This document shows positions 1-13,372 of a stretch of DNA of 64,000 nucleotides, piece by piece (positions within the stretch are counted from its first letter, which is position 1; each line of letters begins with the position of its first letter). The position numbers were made by a program, and so were the translations under genes. This stretch comes from Elusimicrobiota bacterium (lineage in GTDB: Bacteria > Elusimicrobiota > Elusimicrobia > UBA1565 > UBA9628): positions 196-64,195 of the forward strand of contig DAIDHS010000010.1 in the NCBI GenBank assembly GCA_027451985.1. The letters run 5' to 3'. Under the pieces are notes generated by a model that saw only the letters and a list, made by a program, of their open reading frames with translations, ran no database searches and was not told the origin of the DNA.

Positions 1-382
1 GCTGGATGTTGTGCTGCGCGCAGACAGCGCGGCCGTCGCTATCAATGTCGCAGGATTTTTGCTCGAGGTAGATGAGGGATCCATCGTCCGGATAATCGGA
101 GGGCGCGGCGGGGGACTTCAGCGCCGCCTTGAGAATCGGATCGGCGATGTCCGCCGCGGTTTTTTCACCCGGGACGCCGAAGACGTGGACCAGCTTGACC
201 TTAAGCACCTGGGAGAGGGGGTAAGAGGTCTCGCGGCCGTCCGCCCTCAAGACGACGGCGGCCGAATCGATGCGGATCACGTCGCCGGAGATTTCTGCGC
301 CGGCATTGGTGAAGACGATGTCAGCATGTACCAGGCCTGGGGCGAGCGCGGCCAGAATTGCCGCGAGAGCGAGCTTTTTCAT
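1..382 (-). CDS. Exported DUF3857/transglutaminase-associated protein, N-terminal part (runs off window edge)
   Basis: Not in the ORF track. Manual translation from the ATG at 382 (ATGA overlap with the upstream stop) gives MKKLALAAILAALAPGLVHADIVFTNAG...DYPDDGSLIYLEQ. It has a signal peptide and a YPD..(S/A).(I/L)L motif like the neighbour's NYPGVDGAAL. Confidence 0.6.
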   Translation of the reverse strand, partial: MKKLALAAILAALAPGLVHADIVFTNAGAEISGDVIRIDSAAVVLRADGRETSYPLSQVLKVKLVHVFGVPGEKTAADIADPILKAALKSPAAPSDYPDDGSLIYLEQKSCDIDSDGRAVCAQHNIQ

Positions 383-2469
383 GCGCCCTCCTTCTTGAGA
401 AAGACGCGCTCGCGCGTCAAATGGGAGACCTGGTCGAGGAATTTCTTGTGGGCCTGGTACTCCGAGGCGGGGTAAATCAGCTGGGCGCGCTTGAAGTCGG
501 CCTCGCAGTTGAGGCGGCGGCCGCGCGCCTTGCAGTCCAGCGAAAAAGACTCGCCCGGGCCTTTGACCCGGACGGACTTGGGCGCGGATTCGACGCGAAA
601 GCCGGCGGGCAGGCTGATCGCGTAATGGTAGCGTTTTTCCTCAGGCTCATGGTATTCGATGGCGTAAAGGCGTTTGACCAGGGAAACTTCCGGGAAATCC
701 ATCTCGAAGTTCGGAAGCTTGAGGATGTAGAGGTCGCCCGCGCGGATGAGGTAGTCCGGAAGGCGGCAGCTCCAGCCGAGCAGGAAAGGTTTGGCGATGT
801 CCTCGGCGTTCTTCGCCTCGTAGGAGGTCAGGACGGCCGAGGGGCTGATGGCGGAGACCTGCTCCTCGAAGCTGGCCTTCAAATCGCTGGCCTTCAAGCT
901 CTTGTAGTAGCCGCGCAGTTCGGCCTCGTGCGTGCCGTCGTAACGGGCGGAGAAATCGACCGTCGCGTCGGCGTCCGAGCTCACGGCGACGCCGTACTCG
1001 TAGACGCTGGCGTTCTGCGAAGGCTTGGGCGTGGGCACGCGGATGATCTTGCGGCCGAAGACGTCTAACACCTTCACGCCGTAGTCCATGGCCGGAATCT
1101 GGGGGTAGCGGAAGTCCTCGCCCACGGAGTCGAGAAACATGCCGCGGCCGTCCAGCGTCACGTGGGTGATGGCATGCTCGAAATCGATGCCGGGAACCTG
1201 AAAATCATGGACGGCGCTGTAGTTGGTGTCGAGCAGGACAGGAGTCGAACGCACGCCGATGACGCGCAGCATCGTGGTCAGAAGCAGGGCTTTGTCGATG
1301 CAGCAGCCGTAACGCCGCTTCCACGTGAGGTTGGCGTCGTAGCCGCCCCAGCCGGAGGCGACGCCCATCTTGACCGCGATGTAGCGCACGCGCTTCTGGA
1401 CGTAGCGGTAGATCGCGGCGACCTTGGCCTGCTGGGTCGGTTCATCCTTGACGAGATTTAGGGTGAACTTCTTAAGCTCGGGGCTGGGCTTGGTCCGCGC
1501 ATCGTACATCTTGGCCAGCCAGGAATAGATGCGGCCCCAGCGGTCGAAGAGGGAGGCCTTGACGTATGGCGAGATGTCCTCGTATTGGACCATCCGCGGC
1601 TCGCTGATGATGGGCGGCAGGTTGCGCAGGCGCCATTCGTAGGTTGTGCGGCCGTGGGCCTTCGTAACGATGGGCTTGGCCAGGCTTTTCCATTTCCCGG
1701 AGAAATTGCGTGCAGAATAATACAAGGTGCGCCCCTGGGGCACGGAAATGCGCAGGGCCGACTCTTTGACCGGAACCCAGTCCTGGAATCCCCAGTTGGG
1801 GAAAAAGAAGTCCTTGCGGAACGGGTTGTAGGTTTCGGTTTCAACTTCCCATTCGATAATGGATCCGACCTCAAGCTGGGGGAGCTGGTAAGAGGCGACC
1901 CGGTAGTCCTGGAAAAACAACGATTCGGCTTGCGGGCTGGTGACTCGGATTTTGGAGCGATCCAAGGGATAAACTCGTCCGTCCGGCTCGTAGACCGTCG
2001 CCTTCAGGATGTTCACGCGGCTGCGGCCGTCTTCGAAAGAGCCCGAGACCTGCCCCCAGGAGCTTTCCAGCCCTTCCTTTAATATCTGGCCGATGAAGAG
2101 TTGGCGCTCCACGCGCGTGCCGTCGGGCCGGAGAACGATGTCGTCGTCCTCGGCCAGAGCCGCGCCGTCGACGCCGGGATAATTCTTCTCGAACGCCGCG
2201 GCTTGGCGGAAAAGTTCTGTTCCGCGCGCGGCCAGAGCCGGGTTCGCCGCCGCGGAAGCCTGTTCGGGGAGGGCGGCTTGGGCGAAGCGGATCTCCTCAA
2301 CGGCCTCGCGCGGCAGGACTTTGCCGTCCGGGAGGATGACGCCGGCTTTGTCAACGAGAACGGGGGAAGCGTTTTTTTCTCCGCCCGCGCGCAACTTCAA
2401 GACGGCCGCGGACGATACGGCAGAAAAACTCAAAATGACGGCGATGACGGCGGACAGGACTCGGGGCAT
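379..2469 (-). CDS. Exported DUF3857 + transglutaminase-like (papain-fold) domain protein
   Basis: Signal peptide; GSIIEWEVE, VRYIAV, RYGCCIDKALLL (Cys), FEHAITHV (His), FLDS (Asp). Start moved to the ATG at 2469 after GGAGG. Confidence 0.85.
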   Translation of the reverse strand: MPRVLSAVIAVILSFSAVSSAAVLKLRAGGEKNASPVLVDKAGVILPDGKVLPREAVEEIRFAQAALPEQASAAANPALAARGTELFRQAAAFEKNYPGVDGAALAEDDDIVLRPDGTRVERQLFIGQILKEGLESSWGQVSGSFEDGRSRVNILKATVYEPDGRVYPLDRSKIRVTSPQAESLFFQDYRVASYQLPQLEVGSIIEWEVETETYNPFRKDFFFPNWGFQDWVPVKESALRISVPQGRTLYYSARNFSGKWKSLAKPIVTKAHGRTTYEWRLRNLPPIISEPRMVQYEDISPYVKASLFDRWGRIYSWLAKMYDARTKPSPELKKFTLNLVKDEPTQQAKVAAIYRYVQKRVRYIAVKMGVASGWGGYDANLTWKRRYGCCIDKALLLTTMLRVIGVRSTPVLLDTNYSAVHDFQVPGIDFEHAITHVTLDGRGMFLDSVGEDFRYPQIPAMDYGVKVLDVFGRKIIRVPTPKPSQNASVYEYGVAVSSDADATVDFSARYDGTHEAELRGYYKSLKASDLKASFEEQVSAISPSAVLTSYEAKNAEDIAKPFLLGWSCRLPDYLIRAGDLYILKLPNFEMDFPEVSLVKRLYAIEYHEPEEKRYHYAISLPAGFRVESAPKSVRVKGPGESFSLDCKARGRRLNCEADFKRAQLIYPASEYQAHKKFLDQVSHLTRERVFLKKEGA

Positions 2470-2562
2470 CAAAACCTCCCGAAAAGTGTGCTGTCCGCAC
2501 GATAGCATACTCTTGCTTGAGGCGCAACCAAAGCGGCGCTGGACGCCGGGATTTTCGACACG

Positions 2563-2576: not shown

Positions 2577-2619
2577 ATAAATAAAAAGGCGTATGCCGGA
2601 TTCCGAATGCGGAGGTGCT

Positions 2620-3024
2620 ATGGCGGAGAAATTCTCAGTCATCATGTTCAGCGGAACGGCCGATAAATTCATCCCGCTGGGAGTCTTGACGCAGGCAGCG
2701 GCGGCCATGGAGATGGAGGTCAGCGTCTTTGTAACGGGTTTCGCTTTGGGGGCTTTCGCAAAAAAACACATGGAGCCTCCGTTTCCCGCCGAATTCGCGG
2801 CCATGGCCCCGGCGTTGGCAAAAGGGCTCAAGGCGGCCAAGGTTCCTTCTTGGGAGGAAATGCTGCGCCAAGCGAAGGATCTGGGCGCCAAGGTTTATGC
2901 CTGCTCCATGATGAGCGAGGTCATGGGGCTGAAGAAGAGCGATTTCAGCGACTTGGTCGATGATGTGGTGGGGGCCGCCACATTTTTGGAGAAGGCTGAA
3001 AACGGGCAAACCATCTTTATCTGA
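2620..3024 (+). CDS. DsrE/DsrF/DrsH-like (DsrE2-type) sulfur-carrier protein
   Basis: FSGTADK, VYACSMMSEVMGL, DDVVGAATFL motifs; GGAGGT RBS before ATG 2620. Confidence 0.85.
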   Translation: MAEKFSVIMFSGTADKFIPLGVLTQAAAAMEMEVSVFVTGFALGAFAKKHMEPPFPAEFAAMAPALAKGLKAAKVPSWEEMLRQAKDLGAKVYACSMMSEVMGLKKSDFSDLVDDVVGAATFLEKAENGQTIFI

Positions 3025-3027
3025 GCT

Positions 3028-3273
3028 ATGGACGCCGGAGCAACGCGCCGCAGGGTGGTCGACGCCAGAGATAAGTCTTGCCCCGGGCCGATCACGGACT
3101 TGGCTTTGGCCTATAGGCGCTCCAAGATCGGCGACGTTATAGAGCTGTGGGCGACTGATCCGGGCGTGCGGGCCGACGTGCGCGCCTGGGCCGCCAAAAC
3201 GGGAAACGAACTTGTTTCCCTGGAAGACAAAAGCGGCGCCATCGTGAGCGTGTTGCGTATACTAAGGAGATGA
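3028..3273 (+). CDS. tusA: TusA-family sulfurtransferase
   Basis: 81 aa with DARDKSCPGP (CPxP) and ATDPG...DVRAWA motifs. Confidence 0.9.
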   Translation: MDAGATRRRVVDARDKSCPGPITDLALAYRRSKIGDVIELWATDPGVRADVRAWAAKTGNELVSLEDKSGAIVSVLRILRR

Positions 3274-3274
3274 T

Positions 3275-4474
3275 ATGGGCGGTGTGCTGATTCTGGGCGG
3301 CGGCACGGGCGGAACGTTGCTCGCCAACATGCTCGCGCGCCGCGGCATTGAGATTACCGTGGTCAGCGAGTCGCCGGAGCACCTCTTCCAGCCGGCCCTC
3401 CTCTACATCGCCCTGGCCGGCGCTGGCGCGGACATCGTCCGGGACGAGCGCGCTCTGCTCGCCAAGCGCGTTCGGTTCGCACGGGAGCGGATTGTGCGGG
3501 TGAATCTCGCCGCCCATCGGGCAGAGGCCGCCTCCGGGGCTCGTTTCGATTATGACTCCTTGGTTGTGGCTACCGGTGCGCGGGCGGAACCGGCGCAGAT
3601 CCCCGGCCTAGCAGAAATCGCGGAGCGCTACGGCAACTACCACTCCGGAATAACCGCGGCGCAAAAACTTTGGAAGGCCCTCGACTCCTTTCGCGGCGGC
3701 ACCGTGGCCGTGGGTCAGGCTTCTCCGATCTGCGTGTGCCCGCCGTCGCCGGTCGAGGGCGTTCTGCTCATCGACAAGCTTCTGCGCCGAAGGTGGCTTA
3801 GAAGCAAGTCTCGCCTGATTTTCTTCACACCTTTTCCGCGCACATATCCGGCCGAACCGATTAATGAAATTGTGGAACCGCTTCTCAAAGCCCGCGGCAT
3901 TGAAGTTAAGACTTTTTTCGACGTGGACCGCGTGGAACCGGCGTCCCGCACCATTTTTTCCATCGAGGGCGAGCGCATCGACTGCGACCTGCCCATCATC
4001 GTTCCGCCCGTTTGCGGCGCGGACGTCGCTTACGAGCCGGACGGCGCGCTCAACGCCGATCGTTTCATCGCAGTCGACAAGAAGACGCTGCGCATCAAGG
4101 ATACAGACTCCGCCTACGCCATCGGCGATGCCACGGATCTGCCGACCTCGAAGGCCGGCGCGGGCGCCCATCTTCAGGCGAAGACGGTTTTCAGGGAGCT
4201 GATGGGGGAGCCGGCGGAATTCAACGGCCGCACGCATTGCGCCTTCGATCTCGGAAACGGCACGGGAACTTTCGTCATCAGCTCCTACTCCGCTCCGGCC
4301 GTGCGGTACCCACCGACGCGCATCAAGCGCCTCATGAAGATGCTTATGGGCCGCGTTTACTGGCTGAGCCTCAGCGGGCTTTTCGAGACGATTTTCAACT
4401 GGTACTTTTCCTGGACCGCGCCTGAGCGTCTCGCGGCGCGTTGGCCTAGGTTTTGGAGGCGCGCAAATCGATGA
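3275..4474 (+). CDS. sqr: Sulfide:quinone oxidoreductase-like FAD disulfide oxidoreductase
   Basis: GGGTGG FAD motif, HLFQPALLY, YDSLVVATG, CPPSPVE (Cys1), AIGDATDLPTSKAG, GRTHC (Cys2). Confidence 0.75.
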   Translation: MGGVLILGGGTGGTLLANMLARRGIEITVVSESPEHLFQPALLYIALAGAGADIVRDERALLAKRVRFARERIVRVNLAAHRAEAASGARFDYDSLVVATGARAEPAQIPGLAEIAERYGNYHSGITAAQKLWKALDSFRGGTVAVGQASPICVCPPSPVEGVLLIDKLLRRRWLRSKSRLIFFTPFPRTYPAEPINEIVEPLLKARGIEVKTFFDVDRVEPASRTIFSIEGERIDCDLPIIVPPVCGADVAYEPDGALNADRFIAVDKKTLRIKDTDSAYAIGDATDLPTSKAGAGAHLQAKTVFRELMGEPAEFNGRTHCAFDLGNGTGTFVISSYSAPAVRYPPTRIKRLMKMLMGRVYWLSLSGLFETIFNWYFSWTAPERLAARWPRFWRRANR

Positions 4475-5726
4475 TGCGCCGCAGCTTGCCCGTGCGGGGG
4501 TTGGTTTCCAGTTCTCCGGGCGCGCGCCACTCCACCCGAAGCGGGTGGATTTTGTCTTCCCCAACGAAGCGCCGCAGCATGGGCTGGCGGATGTGGAGGG
4601 CTTGGACGATGCGGCGTTCGAGCGGTTTCCTTTCTTTCGGCGGGACGCGGGCGGCGACGCGCAGGGCTAATCCGTCTTTGCCGCCGCGGTGTTCCATGAC
4701 CATCTGCAGCTGGATGGGGCCTGACCGTGGCAGGGACTCCCTGACCGTCTTGAAGGCCTCATCGAAGCCCACGGACAGGGAGGCGACGCGGGCAGAGTCT
4801 TCCGAGCGTCCAAGAAGCCGGTACTTGCGGTTGGACGCTCCTTTAGGCTCAATCCACATCGCCCGATCGCCCACGGGATAGCGGATAATCGGCATCAACC
4901 GCCGCGTTAGGGAGGTGACGAACGCGAGCCCCTCGCGGCCGGGCTCGGCAAGGGGATCACCCGTCTTTTCGTCCAAGATTTCATAGACGGAATGCCCATC
5001 GCAAGAGCGAAACTCGTTGGGCCCGCAGCCGGGGTCCGCGTAACCCAGCATTCCCGCGTCGTTGCTCGCGTAGCCGATGGAGCGGATGCGGGCTTTAGGG
5101 AAGGCCGCATGGGCCTGAAGGCGCTGATCGGGTTGCATGGGTTCGCCCGCAAAAAGGATGAGCCTTATCTTGGGCAGGCAAAGCCCGCGAGTTTTGAGGA
5201 GTCCGGCCAGGGCCGAGATCGTGCTCGGCAGCCCCGCGAGCACGCTAGCTTCGTGCTCTTTGAGGAGGGAAATCGTGTCGGGCGGCGGCGTCGTGCCCGT
5301 GATGGGCAGTTGGAGCGTACGCACGGGGCATTCCTCAAGCACTTTGTGGGTGAAGAGGAACGAGCCGTAGAGGGCCCCTGAATAGAAGAGGTTTGCGACA
5401 CGATCGCCGTTCCGAAGACCGCTCAAGGCCAGCTTGCGGGCGAAGTAGGCGGAAAATTCGTTCCATTCGTCGCGGGAGAAGACGGAAAATTTCGGCTTTC
5501 CGGTCGTCCCGCCGCTGCGCAGCAGAATGCCGTCCCTGATGGGTCCGGTCAGGAGCCGGTTGCCGCGGTAGGAATTGGCCCGCCAGAAGTTTTCTTGGCG
5601 TACGGCGGGGAGGGACACAAGCGAATCGATTTTTTGCGGAAGGCCGCGGTAAAGTTGGCGGTAAAACGGGGAGCGCTTGCGCGCGAAGGCGATGAGCGCC
5701 GCAGCGGTCTTGCCTGGGTGTGCCAT
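4446..5726 (-). CDS. PaaK-like adenylate-forming ligase (leupeptin-type ligase candidate)
   Basis: SGGTTGKPK P-loop, AGEP, GYASNDAG, PIIRYPVGD, LLGRSED, TGKLRRIIDLR. Confidence 0.85.
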   Translation of the reverse strand: MAHPGKTAAALIAFARKRSPFYRQLYRGLPQKIDSLVSLPAVRQENFWRANSYRGNRLLTGPIRDGILLRSGGTTGKPKFSVFSRDEWNEFSAYFARKLALSGLRNGDRVANLFYSGALYGSFLFTHKVLEECPVRTLQLPITGTTPPPDTISLLKEHEASVLAGLPSTISALAGLLKTRGLCLPKIRLILFAGEPMQPDQRLQAHAAFPKARIRSIGYASNDAGMLGYADPGCGPNEFRSCDGHSVYEILDEKTGDPLAEPGREGLAFVTSLTRRLMPIIRYPVGDRAMWIEPKGASNRKYRLLGRSEDSARVASLSVGFDEAFKTVRESLPRSGPIQLQMVMEHRGGKDGLALRVAARVPPKERKPLERRIVQALHIRQPMLRRFVGEDKIHPLRVEWRAPGELETNPRTGKLRRIIDLRASKT

Positions 5727-8248
5727 CAGCGTTTGCGCTCGTCGATCACGCGCAGCAGTTTTCCGCTGGCGGCACTGCGCTTAAAGCCGGCGCCGGGCGT
5801 TTCTTCGGCGCCAAAAAGCAGGGTCTTATCATTCAAGACTACTTCCGCCAGATCTCTGTAATGCTCGAGGCAGGACTTCACGCACTGGGCGGCGCTCAGG
5901 CCGGCGCCCTTGGAGACGCGCAGCAGAATTTTTTCTCGGCGGTTTTCCTCGCGCAGACAGATTTGCAGCTCTCCCGCGTACCCGGCGTGGGTCGAAAGGA
6001 TTTGCGCGAATTTCTGGTAGTTGAAGAAGGCCGTCCCGATTCGAAAAATGTCACCGACGCGGCCCAGGAGCTTGAAGCGGGGGGAAAGCCGCCCGCAGGG
6101 ACAGGGTTCTCCGGGCTTGCCCAGCACCCAATGGCCCATGTCGCCGATGGCGTAGCGCGGAGGCTTGCCGGACCCGGGCTCGCGCGGCGAGAACACCAAG
6201 CGCCCGACTTCTTCGCCCGAGACCGGACGGTCCTCATCGAGTTTTAGGATCTCAAGATGATGGAGTCTTTGCTGCAAATGGTGCACGCCGTCGGCGCAGC
6301 GCCCGCACTGGAATCCCATTGGGCCGATGTCAACGCTGCCGTAGGCCGCGGAGCGGATGAGGCCTACGCCGAAGCGCTCCATCAGGCGCCGCCGCTGGGC
6401 TTCGGTGAAGTGCTCGCCGCCGTAGAAAATCTTCGCTACGCCGCGGTAGCGCCCGAGCAGCGCGGCGTTCTCCTCGAAGAGATTCATGAGGTAGGAAGGC
6501 ATGCCCAGAAGCGCGTTGACCTTGTAATCGACGATGGCCTGCGCGACCATCTTGAGATCTTGATGGGCGGCCATGGGAAACTGGGCAACGCGCAGCCGCT
6601 CCAAGGCGGAAAAGATGCTGATGAAGCCCCCATAAAGCCCGCCGCAAAAGAACAGGTTCATGACACGATCCTTCTCCGGGTCGAGTCCGGCGGCGTAGAG
6701 CCCTTGCGCCCCGAAGAGCATGTCATCGTCGTATTGGTCGTAGGTGAAGGTCGAAAGCTTGGGCTTGCCAGTGCTGCCTCCACTCTTGAAGAACAGTCGC
6801 GCTTGCGGATTCTCAGAGGAAAACTTTTCCTTGGCAGTAATCTTGGGGAGAGACGGCCAGGGCGGAGGCGGGTAAAGGGTCAGCTCGTCGAAAGCGGAAA
6901 TGCCTCGGCTCGGTACGGGCGTCTGCGCAGAGACGCGGCGGCAATAGCGCTGCAAGGCATAGAGCCCGTCGTGGGGCTCGCCGGAGTAGCTGCCAGTCAT
7001 CGTGCCTAAGCGGCGCACTCGAGTCGCGCCGGCCGAAATCAGCCGCTGATTCAGCTCATAGACGTCCGCGGCGCCGCAAGCGAGGCCGACGGTCTGCAAA
7101 TAGGCTTTCATCGGGCGCAGGACCCGGACGATGTCTTGCCGCGGCAATGGCTTGACCCAAACGGTGCGGTAAAGCGGCGAGGGCGTCAGCGCGGGCCGGG
7201 CATCGGCCAGGACGCGCCAAGCGCCGTCTTGAGCGGCAAGGACCCGGGCCTTTCCGAGGCAGGACTCCAGCTCCTGGCACTGCGCGACCATGCTGATTTC
7301 GGCCGCGGCCGCGTCGTCTGGCGCAAGGCGCGGCATGGTCTTGGAGACGCGGGCCAAAGTCCCGGCTAAATTCTCGGCCAACCGATTTGCGGCGCCCCAT
7401 TCTGCCGCATCGACATAGACGCATTGCGGACTGGAGCAGGAGAGCTGCTCCAGACGGCAGCACTCTCTCGCTACCTCGTCAAGCGTTTCGGAACGGGAAG
7501 CGGACTCTTTAGAAAGGTAGATGAAGGAAATGCGGTGTCCCCACTCGACGATGCGCGCGCTTGCGGGCGCCATTGTCCGGATGGAGGCGATGGCGCTCTC
7601 GCCGCCCCATGCCGCGATGCCGTCGGCGGCGGCAAAAACTTTGGACAGCAGGTCCCGCCGCTTCGACGGGATGCACGCGGCAATGAGATAGTTGTTGAGG
7701 GCGCCCGAGGAGTCGTTGCGCGCAAGAGCCTCCAGCAGGATTTGCGCGAAGCCGCAGTCGTCCGCTCCGGTTTTGACGAAATTGACGTTTCCCGACAGCA
7801 GCCCTTCGACCGCGCTCATGGCTCCGGTAGCGAAGGAGTTTTGCGGCGAGACGTGGACTAGGAGCCCCAGCGGCGCCCAGGCCTCGAAGAGATCGTCCTG
7901 GTAGGAGACGCGATTGAGCAGGAAAGGGCGCTTGGATCCCAGTTCGCGCTTCAGTTTGGCTTCGAGCGCCTCGCGTCCCAACATACCCGCGATTTCGGAC
8001 AAGGCTGGCGCGATGTCCGTCCGGCGCGCCGCGCCGGACATCAGGAGCGTTTCTTCCAGCCGCCGGCGCAGCGGGGAGCGTTTGTCTAAAAGGGCCAGCG
8101 CCGTTTTGCCGCACGCGTCTAAGACCGCGGCGGTCGCCGCGGGTTCCGAGGGGATTGAGAGCGCGCCCAGGGCGGCGACGCGCTTTTCCAGTTCCTCGTC
8201 GTTGATCCACTCGCCGCGCCAAAAGTGGGGCTTCATGCCGCGCGTCAT
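5726..8248 (-). CDS. Fusion of LuxC-type acyl-protein/acyl-CoA reductase and PaaK-like ligase
   Basis: N-half: WAPLGLLVHV, AWGGESA, EWGHRISF, EQLSCSSPQ (catalytic Cys), HDGLYALQR. C-half: SGGSTGKPK, YGGEH, YGSVD, RYAIGD, SGKLLRVIDER. Start at ATG 8248 overlapping the luxE-like stop. Confidence 0.85.
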   Translation of the reverse strand: MTRGMKPHFWRGEWINDEELEKRVAALGALSIPSEPAATAAVLDACGKTALALLDKRSPLRRRLEETLLMSGAARRTDIAPALSEIAGMLGREALEAKLKRELGSKRPFLLNRVSYQDDLFEAWAPLGLLVHVSPQNSFATGAMSAVEGLLSGNVNFVKTGADDCGFAQILLEALARNDSSGALNNYLIAACIPSKRRDLLSKVFAAADGIAAWGGESAIASIRTMAPASARIVEWGHRISFIYLSKESASRSETLDEVARECCRLEQLSCSSPQCVYVDAAEWGAANRLAENLAGTLARVSKTMPRLAPDDAAAAEISMVAQCQELESCLGKARVLAAQDGAWRVLADARPALTPSPLYRTVWVKPLPRQDIVRVLRPMKAYLQTVGLACGAADVYELNQRLISAGATRVRRLGTMTGSYSGEPHDGLYALQRYCRRVSAQTPVPSRGISAFDELTLYPPPPWPSLPKITAKEKFSSENPQARLFFKSGGSTGKPKLSTFTYDQYDDDMLFGAQGLYAAGLDPEKDRVMNLFFCGGLYGGFISIFSALERLRVAQFPMAAHQDLKMVAQAIVDYKVNALLGMPSYLMNLFEENAALLGRYRGVAKIFYGGEHFTEAQRRRLMERFGVGLIRSAAYGSVDIGPMGFQCGRCADGVHHLQQRLHHLEILKLDEDRPVSGEEVGRLVFSPREPGSGKPPRYAIGDMGHWVLGKPGEPCPCGRLSPRFKLLGRVGDIFRIGTAFFNYQKFAQILSTHAGYAGELQICLREENRREKILLRVSKGAGLSAAQCVKSCLEHYRDLAEVVLNDKTLLFGAEETPGAGFKRSAASGKLLRVIDERKR

Positions 8249-9414
8249 CGTCCGGATCCCAAAAGTTCGGCGGCCGCCAGCGCGCAGCTTTTGTTCTTGG
8301 ATGTGCCGGCGCGTCCATGCACGACGAAGTACGGGCTCGTGATGCCGCAGCCGCATCCGGCGCCGGGATGGAGGGAAGCCAAGTCGCCCATCAGGACGCT
8401 GTGCGCAGGGATGGAGGTGAGAAACGGGGTCAAGAATTGCAGGAAGCCCGGCTTGCCCATGCCCAAGGGCTCCAAGCTTCGCACGTCACGGATGACGGCC
8501 TGCGACCAGACGGGGACGTGAAAATGGTGTCGGGAGCATTCCGCGTAGGGGATTGGGTGCTCGACCGCGCCAAAGCTGTCGCGGATGCGGGCTTGCGGGA
8601 TACCTAAAAGCTCTTCCGTAAGGGCATAGAGCTCCTCCTTGGGCACGGCCTCATCGGCGTGGCCCTTCCATCCGCCGCCCAGGAACGCAAGAGACTTGGG
8701 AGAAAGGCGGAGGCCTTTGATTTTAAGATCGCGCATGCGCTTTAAGGTGAAGAACAGAAAAGCGGGAAATCCAAAAATGCGCACCGGTAGTCCTTGGGCC
8801 TCGTAGTGCTGCAGGCTGCGGATGCAGCCGAAGACGTCGAACTCGTGCGACCCCGTCCCGGTCCGACGCAGCGCGTGGAAGACGCCCTTGACCGGAGCGT
8901 ACTTGCAGAGATAGTTGTCGGTGTAGGCGGTGCCTAGGGATGATTCGAGCTCGGTTTCATAGCTGTAGAGCAGATAGTTCGTCTTGGTTTCAGGCGCCAC
9001 GAAGCCGAAATACTCGAAGACCCGGTCGACCATGCGCTGCCCTGCTGAGAACGACCAGCGGTCGAAGAATATCTGGGATTTCTGTCCGGTGGTACCCGAA
9101 GACGTGAAATGCGCGAAAACTTCGCCTCTTGGGATGGAAAGGAGCTCGTGCGTCTTGAAGATATTCGCGGGAATGAAGGGAAGGCGGGCGCAATCCGCAA
9201 GGGTTCGGACCGAGCCCGGAGCGAACCCGCGCAGCTTGAGGAGGCGGCGATAAAACTCGGAGCGCTTCGCGTGCCAGCGCGCGCACTCGCTCATGGCTTT
9301 GGCGAAAAGCTCTCCGTGGCCGGCCGCAAACGAATAGGGGTCGGCCAAGTCCGCGACGGCCTGCACCGCCGCGAGCGCTTTGGGATCGGGAACGCGGGGC
9401 TGCGCGGGTTTCAC
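8245..9414 (-). CDS. LuxE-type acyl-protein synthetase / ligase
   Basis: LPFIPANIFK, TSSGTTGQKS, FGFPAF, GGGWKGH, DSFGAVEH, VLMGD, GRAG...KSCA. GTG start at 9414 overlapping the MFS stop. Confidence 0.85.
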   Translation of the reverse strand: MKPAQPRVPDPKALAAVQAVADLADPYSFAAGHGELFAKAMSECARWHAKRSEFYRRLLKLRGFAPGSVRTLADCARLPFIPANIFKTHELLSIPRGEVFAHFTSSGTTGQKSQIFFDRWSFSAGQRMVDRVFEYFGFVAPETKTNYLLYSYETELESSLGTAYTDNYLCKYAPVKGVFHALRRTGTGSHEFDVFGCIRSLQHYEAQGLPVRIFGFPAFLFFTLKRMRDLKIKGLRLSPKSLAFLGGGWKGHADEAVPKEELYALTEELLGIPQARIRDSFGAVEHPIPYAECSRHHFHVPVWSQAVIRDVRSLEPLGMGKPGFLQFLTPFLTSIPAHSVLMGDLASLHPGAGCGCGITSPYFVVHGRAGTSKNKSCALAAAELLGSGR

Positions 9415-10613
9415 GCGGCGCGCACTCCGGGATAAAAAGAGGTCATGCCTGCCAACGCCAGCAGAACGCAGGCGCAAGCCAGAGCCAGCTTCCCTAAATT
9501 CGCACTTTCGATGAGGCCGCCCATGAAGGCCATGGAAACGGGAATGGCGCCGACGCTGATGAGATTGACCCAGCCCATGACCGCGGGTACGTCCTCTTCC
9601 AGCGGTCGGGCTTGGAACAAGGTCAGGAGAGTGACGTTTAAGACTGAAAGCGCGGCGCCCAGCGCCAAAAGCGCCATGCAGGCGAGGGCGGGGGTTCGGT
9701 TGAGGGCGAAAATCAGATACATGAGCGAAATGGAGAACAGGCTTGCGATAATCCGAGTTCCCGCTTTCCCATGCGCGCTCAGGAGCGAAAGGACGAGGCT
9801 GCCGCTGGCCATACCCAAGCCCAGCGAGGTTTCCATCGCGGAGAGAGTTCCGATGCCGCCGTTGAAGCGATATTTGGCGAAGAGCGGCAAGAACGCAAGG
9901 ATGGGAGTGAAGGCCATGTTCATGAGGGAAAAAGCGGCCAGAAGAAAGCGCACGAGCCCGTCTTCCTTAAACGGGATACGGGGTTTCACCTCATCGTCGG
10001 CCGCGGAGACGGGGGATTTCTTCGGGTTTGGGGCCGAAGCTGCCTTTATCCGCGACTCCAGAAACGCGGCCAGGAGGTAGCTTGCCGCGTTGGCGAGAAA
10101 AAGCCCACCCAAGCCGAGCCAGGGGTAGAGCGAGGCGGCTGCGATTGGTCCCGCGATATTGCCCATGGAAAAACAGGAGTCGACCATGGCGGTCAACTGG
10201 CCCAGAAGACCTTCTTTCGAGCGCGGTAGGCTCGCGGGCAAGGACATGATCGCGGGATTGAAGAGCGCGGAGGCGCAGTTCGCCAAGAAAGTGACGCAGA
10301 ATAGAACCGCCATTTTGGGCCAGAGAGCCCAGGCCGCCCCGGCGGCGGCGTAGACTAGGGCGCGCGCCACGTCCGTTGCGACTACGGTCTTGAGGGCACC
10401 CAGCTTTCCAATCCATTTTGCGGCTGGGCGGGAGAAAAGGAGATGGGGCAGCGCGCCCGCAGCCAAAAACCAGGGGACCAGGCGCAAGGAGCCCAGGCTC
10501 GCGATGACCCAGACTAAGCCTACCGTCATCATCTTGTCGCAGATTTGCGAGATGGCTTGTCCGGAAAATATTTTGGCGGCGTCGGCGTCCTGGAAGACTG
10601 TGAGGGAAAACAT
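9411..10613 (-). CDS. MFS transporter (macrolide/peptide efflux type)
   Basis: 400 aa with about 12 hydrophobic segments; GQAISQICDKM and ALFNPA motifs; lies inside the biosynthetic operon. Confidence 0.85.
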   Translation of the reverse strand: MFSLTVFQDADAAKIFSGQAISQICDKMMTVGLVWVIASLGSLRLVPWFLAAGALPHLLFSRPAAKWIGKLGALKTVVATDVARALVYAAAGAAWALWPKMAVLFCVTFLANCASALFNPAIMSLPASLPRSKEGLLGQLTAMVDSCFSMGNIAGPIAAASLYPWLGLGGLFLANAASYLLAAFLESRIKAASAPNPKKSPVSAADDEVKPRIPFKEDGLVRFLLAAFSLMNMAFTPILAFLPLFAKYRFNGGIGTLSAMETSLGLGMASGSLVLSLLSAHGKAGTRIIASLFSISLMYLIFALNRTPALACMALLALGAALSVLNVTLLTLFQARPLEEDVPAVMGWVNLISVGAIPVSMAFMGGLIESANLGKLALACACVLLALAGMTSFYPGVRAA

Positions 10614-10616
10614 CCG

Positions 10617-11774
10617 TCAATCCATCAAGTTTGGGCCTAGGAAGATGTCCCGCCAGTTTCGGTAGTACTCGCGAAGAAACTTCTTGTTTGTTCCGGCCAG
10701 CTGGGCGCCTTGGAAATCGAGGATTTCGAAGGTTTTGCTCAGGACCGCGTAGTCGTAGCGCATTTTATCATGAAGCTGGAAGGCGGGAAAATAAGCGCAG
10801 GGAACGAAGCGGGCCTGGAGGATGCCTTCGACGGTCTTGAGCTTGTCCGCACGCGCAATAGTCTCGATGTAGCGCACGCCGCGGCGGTGCAGGAGCTCGG
10901 AGGCCTTGGACAGTACCTGGGCGAAGAGGATGTCGTCCGGCTTGTGGATGCCGACCAAAGTGCAGTATTGATCGGCGGGCGCCAGGAAGGCGAAAATTTC
11001 GACCTTGCGGCACGGCGAGGCGATGATGATGTTGGGCTGATGAAAAGGGTAGAAATGAAAGGGGATTTTTCGATCCTCCTGAAGGTTGCGGAAACGGTGC
11101 AAAGTAAAGAGGGGCGCGTCGATGATTTCCAGCGCGGGGATTTTGGCCGGAGTTGTTTGGGAAACGGAATATTCGGAAGGTTTGGCGATGGGAATCTTGG
11201 GGATGCCGATTTCGCTTCGGACAATGTCGACTAAGCCCGCGAACTTGGGGTGCAACTTGAAGTCGGTGAAGCGCTGGGCAAGCGAGCCATCGAAGAAAAA
11301 GGCGGTCAGGCAGTGGGTTTCATAAGCGTCGGTGCGGTGGATGTTGGGAAAGATGCCCAACTTCTTGTAGCCCAGCTTTTCCGCGACAATTTGCGGCGCC
11401 TGACTCGTGGTTCTGGTGGTCGCGTAGATGACGTCCACGCCGCCTTTGCCGGCCCGCAGGCGTTGGGCACCGAACGTCATGGATTTTTCAAGGAGGTCGG
11501 CGCCGCGGTGCTCCGGAAGGACGACTCCGCCGAAGACCTTGGCGATCCGGTTACGCTCGTCTGTCTCCCACGCGACCGAACCGACGATGGAACCATTCCT
11601 CTCCGCGACCACCCAGACGTTGGCGGGTTCGGAGAGAAAGGCCGTGAGCAGTCCTACGTCCCGCATGAGGGGATCGGTATAGGTTCCGTTGTAGACCCGG
11701 TGGTAGAGGAGCGTAATTTCAAGCGCGTCCTCCGGCGTCGCCAGGCGGATGCGGTATTCCGTCGTCTTAGCCAT
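10617..11774 (-). CDS. GNAT-family N-acyltransferase with C-terminal extension
   Basis: IRLATPED, WVVAERNGSIVG, VVLPEHRG, KLGYKKLG motifs. Confidence 0.8.
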   Translation of the reverse strand: MAKTTEYRIRLATPEDALEITLLYHRVYNGTYTDPLMRDVGLLTAFLSEPANVWVVAERNGSIVGSVAWETDERNRIAKVFGGVVLPEHRGADLLEKSMTFGAQRLRAGKGGVDVIYATTRTTSQAPQIVAEKLGYKKLGIFPNIHRTDAYETHCLTAFFFDGSLAQRFTDFKLHPKFAGLVDIVRSEIGIPKIPIAKPSEYSVSQTTPAKIPALEIIDAPLFTLHRFRNLQEDRKIPFHFYPFHQPNIIIASPCRKVEIFAFLAPADQYCTLVGIHKPDDILFAQVLSKASELLHRRGVRYIETIARADKLKTVEGILQARFVPCAYFPAFQLHDKMRYDYAVLSKTFEILDFQGAQLAGTNKKFLREYYRNWRDIFLGPNLMD

Positions 11775-11812
11775 GCAAGTGCAATTGTAATAAATAAGGC
11801 GGGAAAGCGGCC

Positions 11813-11826
11813 TTGACGGGGATCAA
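11813..11826. promoter_or_regulatory. Crp/Fnr-family-like box TTGAC-N4-ATCAA
   Basis: One mismatch to TTGAT-N4-ATCAA, in the divergent intergenic region. A minus-strand TACAAT at 11789-11784 puts the box centre near -42. Confidence 0.45.
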
Positions 11827-11867
11827 CGCCCGCGAAATTTGCCAAAATCGAAAGCGATCGGCTGTTT

Positions 11868-12572
11868 ATGGAAAAAATGCTTGAAGTTCGGGATTTGCGC
11901 AAGACGTTTGGCGCCGTTGCGGCCGTGGACGGCATTTCCTTTGAGGTCTCTCCCGGGGAAATTGTGGGACTCTTGGGCCCCAACGGAGCCGGCAAAACCA
12001 CGACCATCAGCATGATTCTGGGCATTCTCGAGCCCAGCGGCGGGGAAATCCTTATTGAGGATCGCGGACATATGAATTTCGCGGCGGTCTACGCGCCCTT
12101 GCCCGGCAACCTGACCGTGGCGGAAAATCTTAGGGTATTCGGACTCATATACGGCGTGGAGAACTTCCGCGAGCGGCTAGAAGAACTTCTAAAGCAGTTC
12201 GATCTGGCCAAGTACCGGAATACGAAGGCGGGGCTTTTGTCCTCTGGCGAGCAGACGAGACTCTGCCTTGCCAAGGCGATGCTCAATAAACCCCAGTTGC
12301 TGCTTTTGGATGAGCCCACGGCCTCGTTGGATCCGTCCATCGCGCGCGAAATCCGCGCGGAAATAAAGGACTTCACGGTGCGGGGGCGCGGCGCTGTGCT
12401 TTGGACCTCGCACAACATGCACGAGGTCGAGGAGGTGTGCGACCGGGTGCTTTTCCTCTCGCACGGCAAGATCCTCCTAGAGGGCGACCCCAAGGTCTTG
12501 CCGCAGCGTCACGGCAAGAAGACGCTGGAAGATCTTTTCGTCGCCGTCGCGCGGGAGCCTCTGTCCTTGTGA
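11868..12572 (+). CDS. ABC-2 exporter ATP-binding subunit
   Basis: GPNGAGKTT Walker A, LSSGEQ signature, LLLLDEPT Walker B, SH switch. Confidence 0.93.
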   Translation: MEKMLEVRDLRKTFGAVAAVDGISFEVSPGEIVGLLGPNGAGKTTTISMILGILEPSGGEILIEDRGHMNFAAVYAPLPGNLTVAENLRVFGLIYGVENFRERLEELLKQFDLAKYRNTKAGLLSSGEQTRLCLAKAMLNKPQLLLLDEPTASLDPSIAREIRAEIKDFTVRGRGAVLWTSHNMHEVEEVCDRVLFLSHGKILLEGDPKVLPQRHGKKTLEDLFVAVAREPLSL

Positions 12573-13372
12573 ACCCGAAGCGCCTTTACGCCGTGGTGCT
12601 GAGGCAGTTCTACCTGATGCGGGGAAGCCTCTCGCGCGTCCTGCCGCTCTTCGCCTGGGTCACCGTCGACATCGCTCTTTGGGGTTTCCTGACGCGCTAC
12701 CTTAATTCCGTGGCGGACTCGGGCTTCAGCTTCGTCACCACACTTCTGGGCGCGGTGCTTTTGTGGGACTTTTTCATGCGCGTCATGCAGGGCGTGACCA
12801 TGGCATTCTTCGAGGACGTCTGGTCGCGCAATTTCCTTAATTTCTTCGCTTCGCCGCTGACCATCTGGGACTATTTGGGCGGCTTGGTCGCCAGCAGTAT
12901 TGCGACGAGTTCCATCGGTTTGGCGGCCATGCTGCTGCTGGCGGGTCTGGCCTTCGGGCTTTCCTTTGCGGCCTACGGGGTGATGTTCGTTCCCTTCCTG
13001 CTGATTCTTTTCATCTTCGGCATCGCTTTGGGCGTGATGGCGACGGCTTTGGTCTTGAGACTCGGCCCGGCCTCGGAGTGGTTCGTCTGGCCCATCCCGG
13101 CCCTTATCGCGCCCTTCGCCGGGGTCTTCTATCCGGTCGCGGTTCTTCCGCGCTGGATGCAGCTTTTCGCGCGTGTTCTTCCGCCGGCCTACGTGTTTGA
13201 GTCCATGCGCACCATCGTCCTGCACCGCTCGCCCGGCGCGTGGCCGGTCCTGGCCGGGGCCGGCTTGGCCGTGCTTTATCTTGCGGCCGGCTGCTGGATT
13301 TTCGCGCGCACCTACCGCTATGCGGTGCGCACAGGCCTCATCGCGCGCTACAGCGCCGAGAGCGTCAGCTGA
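12569..13372 (+). CDS. ABC-2 exporter permease
   Basis: About 6 TM segments, GVFYPVAVLP.W motif; GTG at 12569 overlaps the ATPase stop. Confidence 0.88.
   Translation: MNPKRLYAVVLRQFYLMRGSLSRVLPLFAWVTVDIALWGFLTRYLNSVADSGFSFVTTLLGAVLLWDFFMRVMQGVTMAFFEDVWSRNFLNFFASPLTIWDYLGGLVASSIATSSIGLAAMLLLAGLAFGLSFAAYGVMFVPFLLILFIFGIALGVMATALVLRLGPASEWFVWPIPALIAPFAGVFYPVAVLPRWMQLFARVLPPAYVFESMRTIVLHRSPGAWPVLAGAGLAVLYLAAGCWIFARTYRYAVRTGLIARYSAESVS

What the first reader, a model, noticed from the sequence alone, without database searches (positions are those of the whole stretch)
4446..11774. NRPS-independent, leupeptin-type acyl-peptide-aldehyde biosynthetic cluster built from Lux/PaaK parts, with its own MFS exporter
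Seen: five coupled genes (overlapping or 3-nt-spaced stops and starts) encoding a GNAT, an MFS, a LuxE-like ligase, a LuxC-reductase/PaaK-ligase fusion and a stand-alone PaaK-like ligase. There is no luxAB, luxD, ACP or NRPS. Established, from memory and not checked: the leup operon of Xenorhabdus/Photorhabdus/Klebsiella makes acyl-Leu-Leu-argininal using discrete ligases, a reductase-ligase and an acyltransferase. Inference: three adenylating domains, one aldehyde-releasing reductase and one N-capping acyltransferase predict a secreted N-acyl tripeptide aldehyde protease inhibitor. The residues cannot be predicted from sequence, and the host does not look enterobacterial, so the product may be new.
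Basis: partly seen in the sequence, partly recalled or inferred. Interest (0 to 1): 0.85.

Follow-up and report, generated by a model that had tools for sequence, protein, structure and literature searches.

The report
Leupeptin-type peptide-aldehyde gene cluster
An uncultured Elusimicrobiota bacterium carries a complete five-gene relative of the leupeptin operon, which builds small protease-inhibiting peptide aldehydes without giant synthetase enzymes; it is a new host for a known kind of pathway.

Summary
Window 4446-11774 (minus strand) holds five translationally coupled genes: a tandem GNAT, an MFS, a LuxE-like ligase, a LuxC-reductase/PaaK-type ligase fusion and a stand-alone PaaK-type ligase.

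The leupeptin reading is supported by direct comparison. I recovered a Klebsiella-type leupABCD locus (L084) with the two published leupAB primers, which give the exact published 1,235-bp amplicon. It has the same domain set.
- LuxE-like to LeupA: 49% identity.
- Fusion to LeupB: 39%.
- Ligase to LeupC: 40%.
- These three are the only Leup matches in the window's genome.
- The GNAT matches LeupD only remotely (hhalign 97%).

All scores lie far below the curated LuxC, LuxE and PaaK cut-offs. The genome shows no NRPS condensation domain and no LuxD.

The cassette is widespread. At least 565 species genomes encode the fusion. Of the 80 best loci, 68 hold all four enzymes, including the leupeptin producer Streptomyces roseus ATCC 31245.

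Verdict: a new member of a known kind. The product's residues are unknown. Interest is moderate.

The parts
10617..11774 (-). Tandem-GNAT acyltransferase (385 aa), a remote LeupD relative. Inferred N-capping enzyme that acylates an amino acid.
   Evidence: Pfam Acetyltransf_1 over residues 23-136. BLASTP to Klebsiella LeupD: 25% over 138 aa, E 3.6e-4. Profile comparison to the LeupD family: 97.3% probability, E 2.4e-11, 296 columns. AlphaFold model pLDDT 89.5 with two alpha/beta domains. Best folds are the amino-acid N-acetyltransferases ArsN and phosphinothricin acetyltransferase; tandem-GNAT proteins match over the full length.
9411..10613 (-). MFS transporter (400 aa), drug:H+ antiporter-like. 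Inferred exporter.
   Evidence: Pfam MFS_1 1.3e-19 and MFS_3 1.5e-7. NCBIfam TIGR00900 'H+ antiporter protein' 2.5e-30 and weak Mef(A) hits. A homologue sits in the cassette in 14 of 80 loci. S. roseus has an MFS_1/MFS_3 gene inside its cassette. Direction of transport is not shown.
8245..9414 (-). LuxE-like acyl-protein synthetase (389 aa from the GTG at 9414; the ORF reaches 9477), a LeupA orthologue.
   Evidence: Pfam LuxE 7.1e-32. 49% identity to Klebsiella LeupA over 375 aa, E 6.5e-125, and the only LeupA match in the genome. Aligns to LuxE 7xc6_E, including the C-terminal acylated Cys and the Lys238 equivalent. Cys and Lys are conserved in 81 of 81 family members aligned.
6839..8248 (-). 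LuxC-type thioester reductase domain of the fusion protein (residues 1-470 of 840), the N-terminal half of the LeupB orthologue.
   Evidence: Pfam LuxC 4.7e-90. Aligns to LuxC 7xc6_A, with the window's Cys (in SCSSPQ) opposite the Cys of LuxC's ACFSTQ. I take that Cys to be the active-site Cys296 named in PMC9157457. Cys conserved in 83 of 83. Predicted to dock the LuxE-like protein.
5726..6838 (-). PaaK-type adenylate-forming (ANL) ligase domain of the fusion protein, the C-terminal half of the LeupB orthologue. Inferred amide-bond ligase.
   Evidence: Pfam AMP-binding 6.1e-8 and NCBIfam PaaK-type hits 1.5e-18. Whole fusion is 39% identical to Klebsiella LeupB over 756 aa, E 1e-163. Matches PaaK structures 4r1l and 2y4o. 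The Ser-Gly-Gly of the P-loop is 83 of 83 and the C-terminal GK lysine 82 of 83.
4446..5726 (-). Stand-alone PaaK-type ANL ligase (426 aa), a LeupC orthologue. Inferred second amide-bond ligase.
   Evidence: NCBIfam PaaK-type hits 3.3e-20 against a cut-off of 646 bits. 40% identity to Klebsiella LeupC over 416 aa, E 5.6e-91, against 28% to the LeupB ligase half. The two Gly of the P-loop are 79 of 79 and the GK lysine 78 of 79.
11775..11867 (.). 93-nt intergenic region between the GNAT start and a divergent ABC-transporter ATPase gene. The presumed operon promoter lies here.
   Evidence: Read. The sigma-70 consensus scan found no site here, so the promoter is inferred from position only.

Best explanation
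This is a leup-type, NRPS-independent operon for a small N-acyl peptide aldehyde, carried by an Elusimicrobiota genome.

Shown here:
- Three enzymes are orthologues of LeupA, LeupB and LeupC of the Klebsiella leupeptin operon.
- The fourth is a remote LeupD-family tandem GNAT.
- All catalytic motifs are intact.

Inferred mechanism:
1. The GNAT N-acylates the first amino acid from an acyl-CoA.
2. The two PaaK-type adenylate-forming units are the C-terminal half of the fusion and the stand-alone ligase. Each activates a carboxylate as an acyl-adenylate and couples it to the amine of the next amino acid. That gives two peptide bonds and an N-acyl tripeptide acid, with no carrier protein or condensation domain.
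3. The LuxE-like enzyme adenylates the C-terminal carboxylate, loads it onto its own conserved C-terminal cysteine and hands it to the active-site cysteine of the LuxC domain.
4. The LuxC domain reduces the thioester with NAD(P)H to the aldehyde warhead.
5. The MFS exports the product.

The likely function is inhibition of serine and cysteine proteases. The identity of the residues is not predictable from these data, so whether the product is leupeptin itself or an analogue is open.
For: - **Comparator locus.** L084 was found with the published primer leupA_f. It also holds leupB_r exactly 1,235 bp away, the published amplicon size (PMC8283571 passages).
- **Architecture of L084.** It encodes MFS, LuxE-like (378 aa), LuxC + AMP-binding fusion (803 aa), AMP-binding ligase (446 aa) and GNAT (305 aa).
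- **Orthology to the window proteins.** 49% to LeupA (E 6.5e-125), 39% to LeupB (E 1e-163), 40% to LeupC (E 5.6e-91). The cross-paralogue matches are only about 28%.
- **Reverse search.** Klebsiella LeupA, LeupB and LeupC against the whole genome hit only these genes.
- **GNAT.** hhalign against the LeupD family gives 97.3% probability, E 2.4e-11, over 296 columns. The modelled fold is closest to amino-acid N-acetyltransferases and tandem GNATs.
- **Not true Lux or PaaK.** NCBIfam scores are 68.5 of 750 for LuxC, 89 of 550 for LuxE and 72 of 646 for PaaK.
- **No NRPS or Lux partners.** No condensation domain and no LuxD were found in the 95.4%-complete genome.
- **Catalytic residues.** LuxE-type Cys and Lys 81 of 81; LuxC Cys 83 of 83; ligase GK lysines 82 of 83 and 78 of 79.
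- **LuxC-domain/LuxE-like docking.** Score 0.80 against a best control of 0.00. That mark was reached by 58 of 80 solved complexes and 2 of 110 mismatched pairs. The runs agree in at least 56% of contacts and the partner's pLDDT is at least 83. A LuxC-LuxE complex (7xc6) is already solved, so the pass may reflect likeness only.
- **Conserved synteny.** All four enzymes occur together in 68 of 80 loci.
- **Published chemistry.** PMC11212599 (passage read) summarises Li et al. 2020: leupeptin derives from a non-NRPS pathway that uses separate AMP-dependent ligases for amide bonds and a reductase for the aldehyde.
Against: - No chemistry was done. The product, its length and its residues are inferred.
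- The primary paper, Li et al. 2020, is not held. I could not check which Leup enzyme its authors assign to which step, so my wiring is my own inference from Lux biochemistry.
- The GNAT is only a remote LeupD relative. tblastn of LeupD against the genome found nothing at E 1e-3.
- The MFS is not orthologous to the Klebsiella transporter, and export is assumed.
- In the FastTree, Klebsiella LeupB sits on a long branch (1.47). It lies beside the actinomycete clade with support of only 89, not beside the window's clade. Functional equivalence across that distance is not guaranteed.
- No promoter-like site was found upstream.
Confidence: 0.8

Rival explanations
1. Same family, different wiring. 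The ligase domain fused to LuxC activates the final carboxylate for its own reductase domain, as the adenylation domain does in carboxylic acid reductases. The LuxE-like enzyme is then one of the two amide-bond formers.
For: Physical fusion of the LuxC and ANL domains is conserved in all 83 family members aligned and in Klebsiella LeupB. Fusion often marks consecutive steps. I could not read Li et al. 2020 to see the authors' assignment.
Against: The LuxE-like protein keeps the acyl-accepting C-terminal Cys and the Lys of true LuxE in 81 of 81 sequences. That Cys is needed for hand-over to LuxC and not for amide formation. The LuxC domain and the LuxE-like protein are predicted to dock: score 0.80 against a best control of 0.00, though this may come from memory of 7xc6.
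Confidence: 0.12
2. The pathway's working end product is not a secreted protease inhibitor. It is instead a shorter or rearranged molecule, such as a pyrazinone-type signal derived from a peptide aldehyde, or an N-acyl amino aldehyde.
For: In Klebsiella and Photorhabdus, leup products are converted to pyrazinones with signalling activity (PMC11480411 passages). In a sister family of Elusimicrobiota, two related cassettes (L097, L098) showed no stand-alone ligase in the DNA held, though both loci end at a contig end. If real, chain length varies within the superfamily.
Against: The window has the full set of three adenylating units, as leupABCD does. I did not look for a homologue of the leupeptin-cleaving protease, whose sequence I do not have.
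Confidence: 0.1
3. A Lux-type fatty-acid reductase that makes fatty aldehydes for lipids, waxes or light.
For: Pfam names the domains LuxC and LuxE. PDB's LuxC-LuxE complex is the top match for the LuxE-like protein and the only one for the LuxC domain searched alone.
Against: Scores are far below the curated LuxC and LuxE cut-offs. No LuxD was found, and only a marginal 30-bit luciferase-family fragment on another contig. Two extra PaaK-type ligases and a GNAT are strictly syntenic. Identity to LeupA and LeupB is 39-49%.
Confidence: 0.03
4. Phenylacetate or aryl-acid CoA ligases of a catabolic pathway.
For: NCBIfam and PDB list PaaK as the nearest named ligase.
Against: The score is 72 bits against a cut-off of 646. 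No paa-type genes are among the neighbours scanned. The ligases are orthologous to LeupB and LeupC.
Confidence: 0.02

Closest known systems
leupABCD leupeptin operon of Klebsiella, Photorhabdus and Xenorhabdus (Li et al. 2020, Angew Chem; not held, known to me through passages in PMC11212599, PMC8283571 and PMC11480411)
   Same: It has the same four enzyme types with the same domain architecture, and an adjacent MFS gene. Identity to LeupA, LeupB and LeupC is 39-49% over the full length, and these are the only matches in the genome. Catalytic residues are intact.
   Different: The host phylum is Elusimicrobiota. The gene order is GNAT-MFS-A-B-C instead of MFS-A-B-C-D. The GNAT is a 385-aa subfamily, related to the 305-aa LeupD only at profile level. 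The MFS is not orthologous. The product is untested.
The same five-gene set in the leupeptin producer Streptomyces roseus ATCC 31245 (L066) and many other actinomycetes
   Same: The S. roseus locus holds the ligase, an MFS_1/MFS_3 transporter, the 385-aa-type GNAT (28% identity over residues 9-379), the LuxE-like gene (54%) and the fusion (45%). The GNAT and MFS types therefore match the window better than the Klebsiella versions do.
   Different: The gene order is permuted, with the ligase and MFS first. Whether this locus makes S. roseus leupeptin is not established in anything I could read. A 2020 preprint attributed it to an NRPS cluster. The passages I read in the 2023 published version do not repeat that claim.
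LuxC-LuxE fatty acid reductase of bioluminescent bacteria (PDB 7xc6; PMC9157457)
   Same: The adenylate, then Cys thioester, then Cys thioester, then NAD(P)H reduction logic is shared. The LuxE C-terminal Cys motif, the Lys238 equivalent and the LuxC active-site Cys are conserved.
   Different: Scores are far below the curated family cut-offs. LuxC is fused to an extra ligase. No LuxD was found, and only one marginal luciferase-family fragment on another contig. The presumed substrate is an acyl-peptide and not a fatty acid.
NRPS-made peptide aldehydes (antipain, chymostatin, flavopeptins) and livipeptin (PMC10548850)
   Same: The product class is the same: a small N-capped peptide with a C-terminal aldehyde that inhibits proteases.
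   Different: Those pathways use NRPS modules with terminal reductase domains, or a condensation-minus NRPS plus an L/F-transferase. No condensation domain was found in this genome.

Membership tests
leup-type (LeupABCD) NRPS-independent peptide-aldehyde cluster | LeupA: a stand-alone LuxE-like adenylating enzyme | tested here: met
   49% identity over 375 aa, E 6.5e-125. It is the only LeupA match in the genome and the only LuxE-family match.
leup-type (LeupABCD) NRPS-independent peptide-aldehyde cluster | LeupB: an N-terminal LuxC-type reductase fused to a C-terminal PaaK-type ligase | tested here: met
   The domain order is the same in both proteins. 39% identity over 756 aa, E 1e-163. Reverse best hit.
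leup-type (LeupABCD) NRPS-independent peptide-aldehyde cluster | LeupC: a stand-alone PaaK-type ligase distinct from the fused one | tested here: met
   40% identity to LeupC (E 5.6e-91) against 28% to the LeupB ligase half. Reverse best hit.
leup-type (LeupABCD) NRPS-independent peptide-aldehyde cluster | LeupD: a GNAT acyltransferase | tested here: inconclusive
   A GNAT is present in the operon, but it belongs to another subfamily (385 aa against 305 aa). BLASTP gives 25% over 138 aa, E 3.6e-4. tblastn of LeupD against the genome gives no hit at 1e-3. hhalign of the two families gives 97.3% probability, E 2.4e-11, over 296 columns.
leup-type (LeupABCD) NRPS-independent peptide-aldehyde cluster | The genes are co-oriented in one operon with a transporter, with no NRPS or carrier protein | tested here: met
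   The junctions are coupled. An MFS gene lies inside the operon. There are 0 condensation-domain matches in the genome. The gene order differs from Klebsiella, and the MFS is not orthologous. I did not search the genome for carrier proteins.
leup-type (LeupABCD) NRPS-independent peptide-aldehyde cluster | The product is an N-acyl tripeptide aldehyde of the leupeptin family | not testable with these tools
   This needs expression and mass spectrometry.
LuxCDE fatty-acid reductase | Scores above the curated LuxC and LuxE equivalog cut-offs | tested here: not met
   LuxC 68.5 bits against 750. LuxE 89.2 bits against 550.
LuxCDE fatty-acid reductase | LuxD acyl-transferase and luciferase LuxAB present | tested here: not met
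   PF02273 gives 0 matches. PF00296 gives only a 30-bit, 53-position fragment on contig C104. The genome is 95.4% complete, so absence is not proven.
PaaK phenylacetate-CoA ligase | Score above the curated PaaK equivalog cut-off | tested here: not met
   The stand-alone ligase scores 72 bits and the fusion 51.6 bits, against a cut-off of 646.3 for TIGR02155.

The most novel reading that the evidence does not exclude
The window's clade (Elusimicrobiota, Massilia, Bdellovibrionota, Obscuribacterales) carries the 385-aa tandem GNAT and a DHA3/MFS_3-type exporter. It may make a structurally new acyl-peptide aldehyde with a different acyl cap or different residues from Leu-Leu-Arg. That would be the first natural product assigned to the uncultured phylum Elusimicrobiota. 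The leup-type logic would then be a broad, multi-phylum route to diverse protease inhibitors and not a gammaproteobacterial speciality.
Probability: 0.35. Interest if true: 0.55.

Novelty: new member of a known kind. Interest (0 to 1): 0.4.

Why it matters
Leupeptin is a standard laboratory protease inhibitor, and its non-NRPS route was described in 2020 for gammaproteobacteria.

This cluster shows the same enzyme logic, intact, in an uncultured Elusimicrobiota genome. The searches made for it show the cassette in at least 565 species-representative genomes across several phyla. These include predatory Bdellovibrionota, Obscuribacterales, Bacteroidales and many actinomycetes.

That makes the family a compact (about 7 kb), easily expressed source of possibly new peptide aldehydes.

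It also bears on an old question. The classical producer Streptomyces roseus ATCC 31245 carries a complete leup-type set. Its leupeptin may therefore come from this route and not from an NRPS.

For this window alone the finding is ordinary: a correct annotation of a known kind of cluster in a new host.

Tried and rejected
**Literature**
- Li et al. 2020 is not held, so the authors' step assignments and their reported taxonomic distribution could not be checked.
- Supplements were not consulted.
- Searches for Leup protein names, LuxC/LuxE with peptide aldehyde, antiSMASH rule text, leupeptin with Elusimicrobia and leup with S. roseus found no paper describing leup-type clusters outside Proteobacteria. 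That covers only the open library.

- The treekit mixture-model tree did not finish in 300 s. I used FastTree instead, so deep branch order and the placement of the long Klebsiella branch are weak.
- The first translation of LeupA from the primer position was out of frame (error; wrong-frame BLAST). It was corrected to ORF 2864-4000.
- The promoter and terminator consensus scan found nothing above the shuffle expectation and no promoter upstream of the GNAT.
- The look-up of sequencing runs: no RNA holder listed.

**Other negative results**
- Clustering of flanking ORFs found no further gene conserved across the 80 loci beyond the core four and an MFS. The best extra family was in 12 loci. The ORF calls in high-GC DNA are crude.
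- The neighbouring divergent ABC transporter (11868-13372) recurs next to the cassette only in the same-genus locus L003 and three unrelated loci. I did not count it as part of the cluster.
- Base composition of the cluster (GC 0.57-0.65) does not stand out from the flanks, so there is no sign of a recent island.
- I considered predicting substrate residues from ligase pockets and rejected it. No specificity code exists for this family.

Full report
**Observation**

Window 4446-11774 holds five minus-strand ORFs.
- A 385-aa GNAT (10617-11774).
- A 400-aa MFS (9411-10613).
- A LuxE-like protein (ORF 8245-9477).
- A LuxC + AMP-binding fusion (ORF 5726-8356).
- A PaaK-like ligase (4446-5726).

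Pfam and NCBIfam confirm each domain call.

Two starts are probably later than the longest ORF. The fusion begins at the ATG at 8248, giving 840 aa, identical to the database gene call P0001. The LuxE-like gene probably begins at the GTG at 9414. This fits the point where homologues begin to align and the GTGA overlap with the MFS stop codon.

With those starts every junction is coupled:
- TGA-cgg-ATG;
- GTGA;
- ATGA;
- TGATG.

The operon is divergent from an ABC-transporter pair and convergent with a pyridine-nucleotide-disulphide oxidoreductase-family gene (Pyr_redox_2). The rest of the window is housekeeping: cytochrome bd, a carbohydrate phosphorylase, pyruvate:ferredoxin oxidoreductase, an RND pump, Lon and trigger factor. 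The window has no tRNA genes, and the cluster's base composition does not stand out.

**Host**

The window is contig C10 of a 2.41-Mb, 107-contig assembly, 95.4% complete and 3.0% contaminated. The closest proteins and loci are labelled Elusimicrobiota, at 78-79% identity.

**Testing the leupeptin idea directly**

The primary paper, Li et al. 2020, is not held. I therefore recovered a reference locus from sequence.

PMC8283571 prints the leupA_f and leupB_r primers. It gives the amplicon as 1,235 bp, places the leup cluster on 5.8 kb of strain CAV1374, and shows a transporter beside leupABCD.
- The forward primer matched eight metagenome contigs.
- In L084 the reverse primer lies exactly 1,235 bp away.

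L084 encodes, in order:
- an MFS;
- a LuxE-family protein (378 aa);
- a LuxC + AMP-binding fusion (803 aa);
- an AMP-binding ligase (446 aa);
- a GNAT (305 aa).

BLASTP of the window proteins against these gave:

| Window protein | L084 protein | Identity | E-value |
|---|---|---|---|
| LuxE-like | LeupA | 49% over 375 aa | 6.5e-125 |
| Fusion | LeupB | 39% over 756 aa | 1e-163 |
| Ligase | LeupC | 40% over 416 aa | 5.6e-91 |
| GNAT | LeupD | 25% over the N-terminal 138 aa | 3.6e-4 |
| MFS | transporter | not significant | 0.13 |

The two ligase paralogues match crosswise at only about 28%. Their duplication therefore predates the split of the two lineages.

In the reverse direction, Klebsiella LeupA, LeupB and LeupC hit only the window genes in the whole genome. 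LeupD found nothing at 1e-3.

LeupD's nearest named database proteins come from Klebsiella, Photorhabdus, Yersinia, Erwinia, Pseudomonas entomophila and others. This confirms what L084 is.

They do not.
- NCBIfam scores are 68.5 against 750 for LuxC, 89 against 550 for LuxE and 72 against 646 for PaaK.
- The genome shows no condensation domain and no LuxD.
- It has only one LuxE-family gene.
- It has only a marginal luciferase-family fragment, on another contig.

**The acyltransferase**

The 385-aa GNAT belongs to a family of 108 database proteins of similar length.
- Profile-profile comparison with an 18-member LeupD alignment gave 97.3% probability, E 2.4e-11, over 296 columns spanning both proteins.
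- Against the single LeupD sequence it gave 94.8% over the N-terminal domain.
- The AlphaFold model is confident (pLDDT 89.5, pTM 0.88) and has two alpha/beta domains.
- Foldseek puts amino-acid N-acetyltransferases (ArsN, phosphinothricin acetyltransferases) first for the N-terminal domain.
- Tandem-GNAT proteins (histidine acetyltransferase, the clavulanate-pathway tandem GNAT) match over the full length.

This fits an enzyme that N-acylates a free amino acid. It is a distinct subfamily from enterobacterial LeupD.

**Mechanism**

*Shown.* The LuxE-like protein aligns to LuxE of PDB 7xc6. Its C-terminal Cys lies opposite LuxE Cys364, within the published TRxxKGCxLS motif. Its GGGWK lysine lies opposite Lys238. 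The LuxC domain aligns to LuxC with its Cys opposite the Cys of LuxC's ACFSTQ. I take that Cys to be the active-site Cys296 named in the paper.

Across the family these residues are invariant:
- LuxE-type Cys and Lys, 81 of 81;
- LuxC Cys, 83 of 83.

The two PaaK-type units keep the core of the phosphate-binding loop and the C-terminal GK lysine (82 of 83 and 78 of 79).

The LuxC domain and the LuxE-like protein are predicted to dock.
- Score 0.80; best of three controls 0.00.
- That mark was reached by 58 of 80 solved complexes and 2 of 110 mismatched pairs.
- The runs agree in at least 56% of contacts, and the partner's pLDDT is at least 83.
- A LuxC-LuxE complex is already solved, so this pass may only reflect likeness.

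*Inferred.*
1. The GNAT caps the first residue.
2. The two PaaK-type units each make one peptide bond through an acyl-adenylate.
3. The LuxE-like/LuxC pair converts the acyl-tripeptide acid to the aldehyde.
4. The MFS exports it. It is DHA3/MFS_3-like, with TIGR00900 at 2.5e-30.

This agrees with the one-sentence summary of Li et al. in PMC11212599: separate AMP-dependent ligases for amide bonds, and a reductase for the aldehyde. It also agrees with my recollection, unchecked, of the 1970s-80s S. roseus enzymology of a leupeptin acid synthetase and an ATP/NADPH-dependent leupeptin acid reductase.

The main mechanistic rival is that the fused ligase feeds the reductase. It is not excluded.

**Distribution**

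- The fusion protein has 494 database relatives at E ≤ 0.001 among 8,000 scored candidates.
- Of the 80 best loci, 78 have the LuxE-like gene, 77 the stand-alone ligase, 70 the 385-aa-type GNAT and 68 all four. Fourteen also have a window-type MFS.
- Some misses are contig ends (L017, L041, L063). The five Bacteroidota loci (L010, L011, L018, L022, L074; four labelled Bacteroidales) and three proteobacterial loci lack this GNAT within the DNA held.
- Hosts include Elusimicrobiota, Massilia, Bdellovibrionota, Obscuribacterales, Bacteroidales, Pseudonocardiaceae and many Streptomycetaceae.

In a FastTree of 83 fusion proteins (midpoint-rooted, SH-like supports) the window pairs with L003 (support 100). 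These two are sister to Massilia (support 99). Klebsiella LeupB sits on a long branch next to the actinomycete clade, with support of only 89.

Within the phylum, 31 of 301 sampled genomes have a match at E ≤ 1e-30.
- Only 5, including the window's genome, have a full-length match at 50% identity or more. All five are in the window's own family.
- The others, including 20 of 22 genomes in one sister family, carry a more diverged fusion at about 26-35% identity.

**Novelty and verdict**

The kind is known.
- An antiSMASH output table in PMC12542766 lists a region type 'Leupeptin'.
- PMC10548850 cites a MIBiG entry for it.

The window adds a new phylum-level host and a variant composition: a different GNAT subfamily, a different MFS and a different gene order. 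That composition is shared with the actinomycete version.

The product cannot be named. I rate this a new member of a known kind. Interest is moderate.

Noticed in passing
L066 (Streptomyces roseus ATCC 31245 contig, locus coordinates about 2854-10520): The classical leupeptin producer carries a complete leup-type set: ligase, MFS_1/MFS_3 transporter, 385-aa-type GNAT, LuxE-like gene and LuxC/ligase fusion, at 28-54% identity to the window proteins. A 2020 preprint attributed S. roseus leupeptin to an NRPS cluster. The passages I read in its 2023 published version do not repeat that claim. Whether Li et al. 2020 already noted this locus I could not check.
   Followed up: partly
L097, L098, L099 (G114, G060 and G086, Elusimicrobiota sister family f5): A more diverged version of the cassette, at 26-36% identity, occurs in 20 of 22 sampled genomes of one sister family. 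L097 and L098 show GNAT, LuxE-like and fusion with no stand-alone ligase in the DNA held. Both loci end at a contig end, so the ligase may lie beyond. If it is truly absent, the product would have one peptide bond fewer. L099 has a ligase, a LeupD-like GNAT, LuxE-like, the fusion and a second 385-aa-type GNAT.
   Followed up: partly
L010, L011, L018, L022, L074 (Bacteroidales and Bacteroidota MAGs): These cassettes have the order ligase, LuxE-like, fusion, and no 385-aa-type GNAT within the DNA held. Their product may have a different N-cap or none.
   Followed up: no
window 2593-4474 (+): DsrE-like, TusA-like and pyridine-nucleotide-disulphide oxidoreductase-family genes sit in a row. The last overlaps the 3' end of the cluster's final gene by 29 nt in convergent orientation. 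This looks like a sulfur-trafficking or sulfur-oxidation module.
   Followed up: no
window 379-2508 (-): A 709-aa protein with DUF3857 and a transglutaminase-like core domain. Transglutaminase-like proteins share a cysteine-protease-type fold (my recollection, not from a call), and this one lies near a presumed protease-inhibitor cluster. No link was tested.
   Followed up: no
window 36365-38542 (+) and 45610-46848 (-): A prolyl-oligopeptidase-family serine peptidase (S9), and a second MFS_1/MFS_3 transporter paralogous in family to the cluster's MFS.
   Followed up: no
window 4446-11774: Near-identical DNA is held by four runs of one coded study (P1) labelled mine drainage metagenome, with shares of 0.33-0.89 of the sampled words. 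Two further runs hold small shares, which is no evidence of habitat. None was laid, and the best holder may be the source sample.
   Followed up: no
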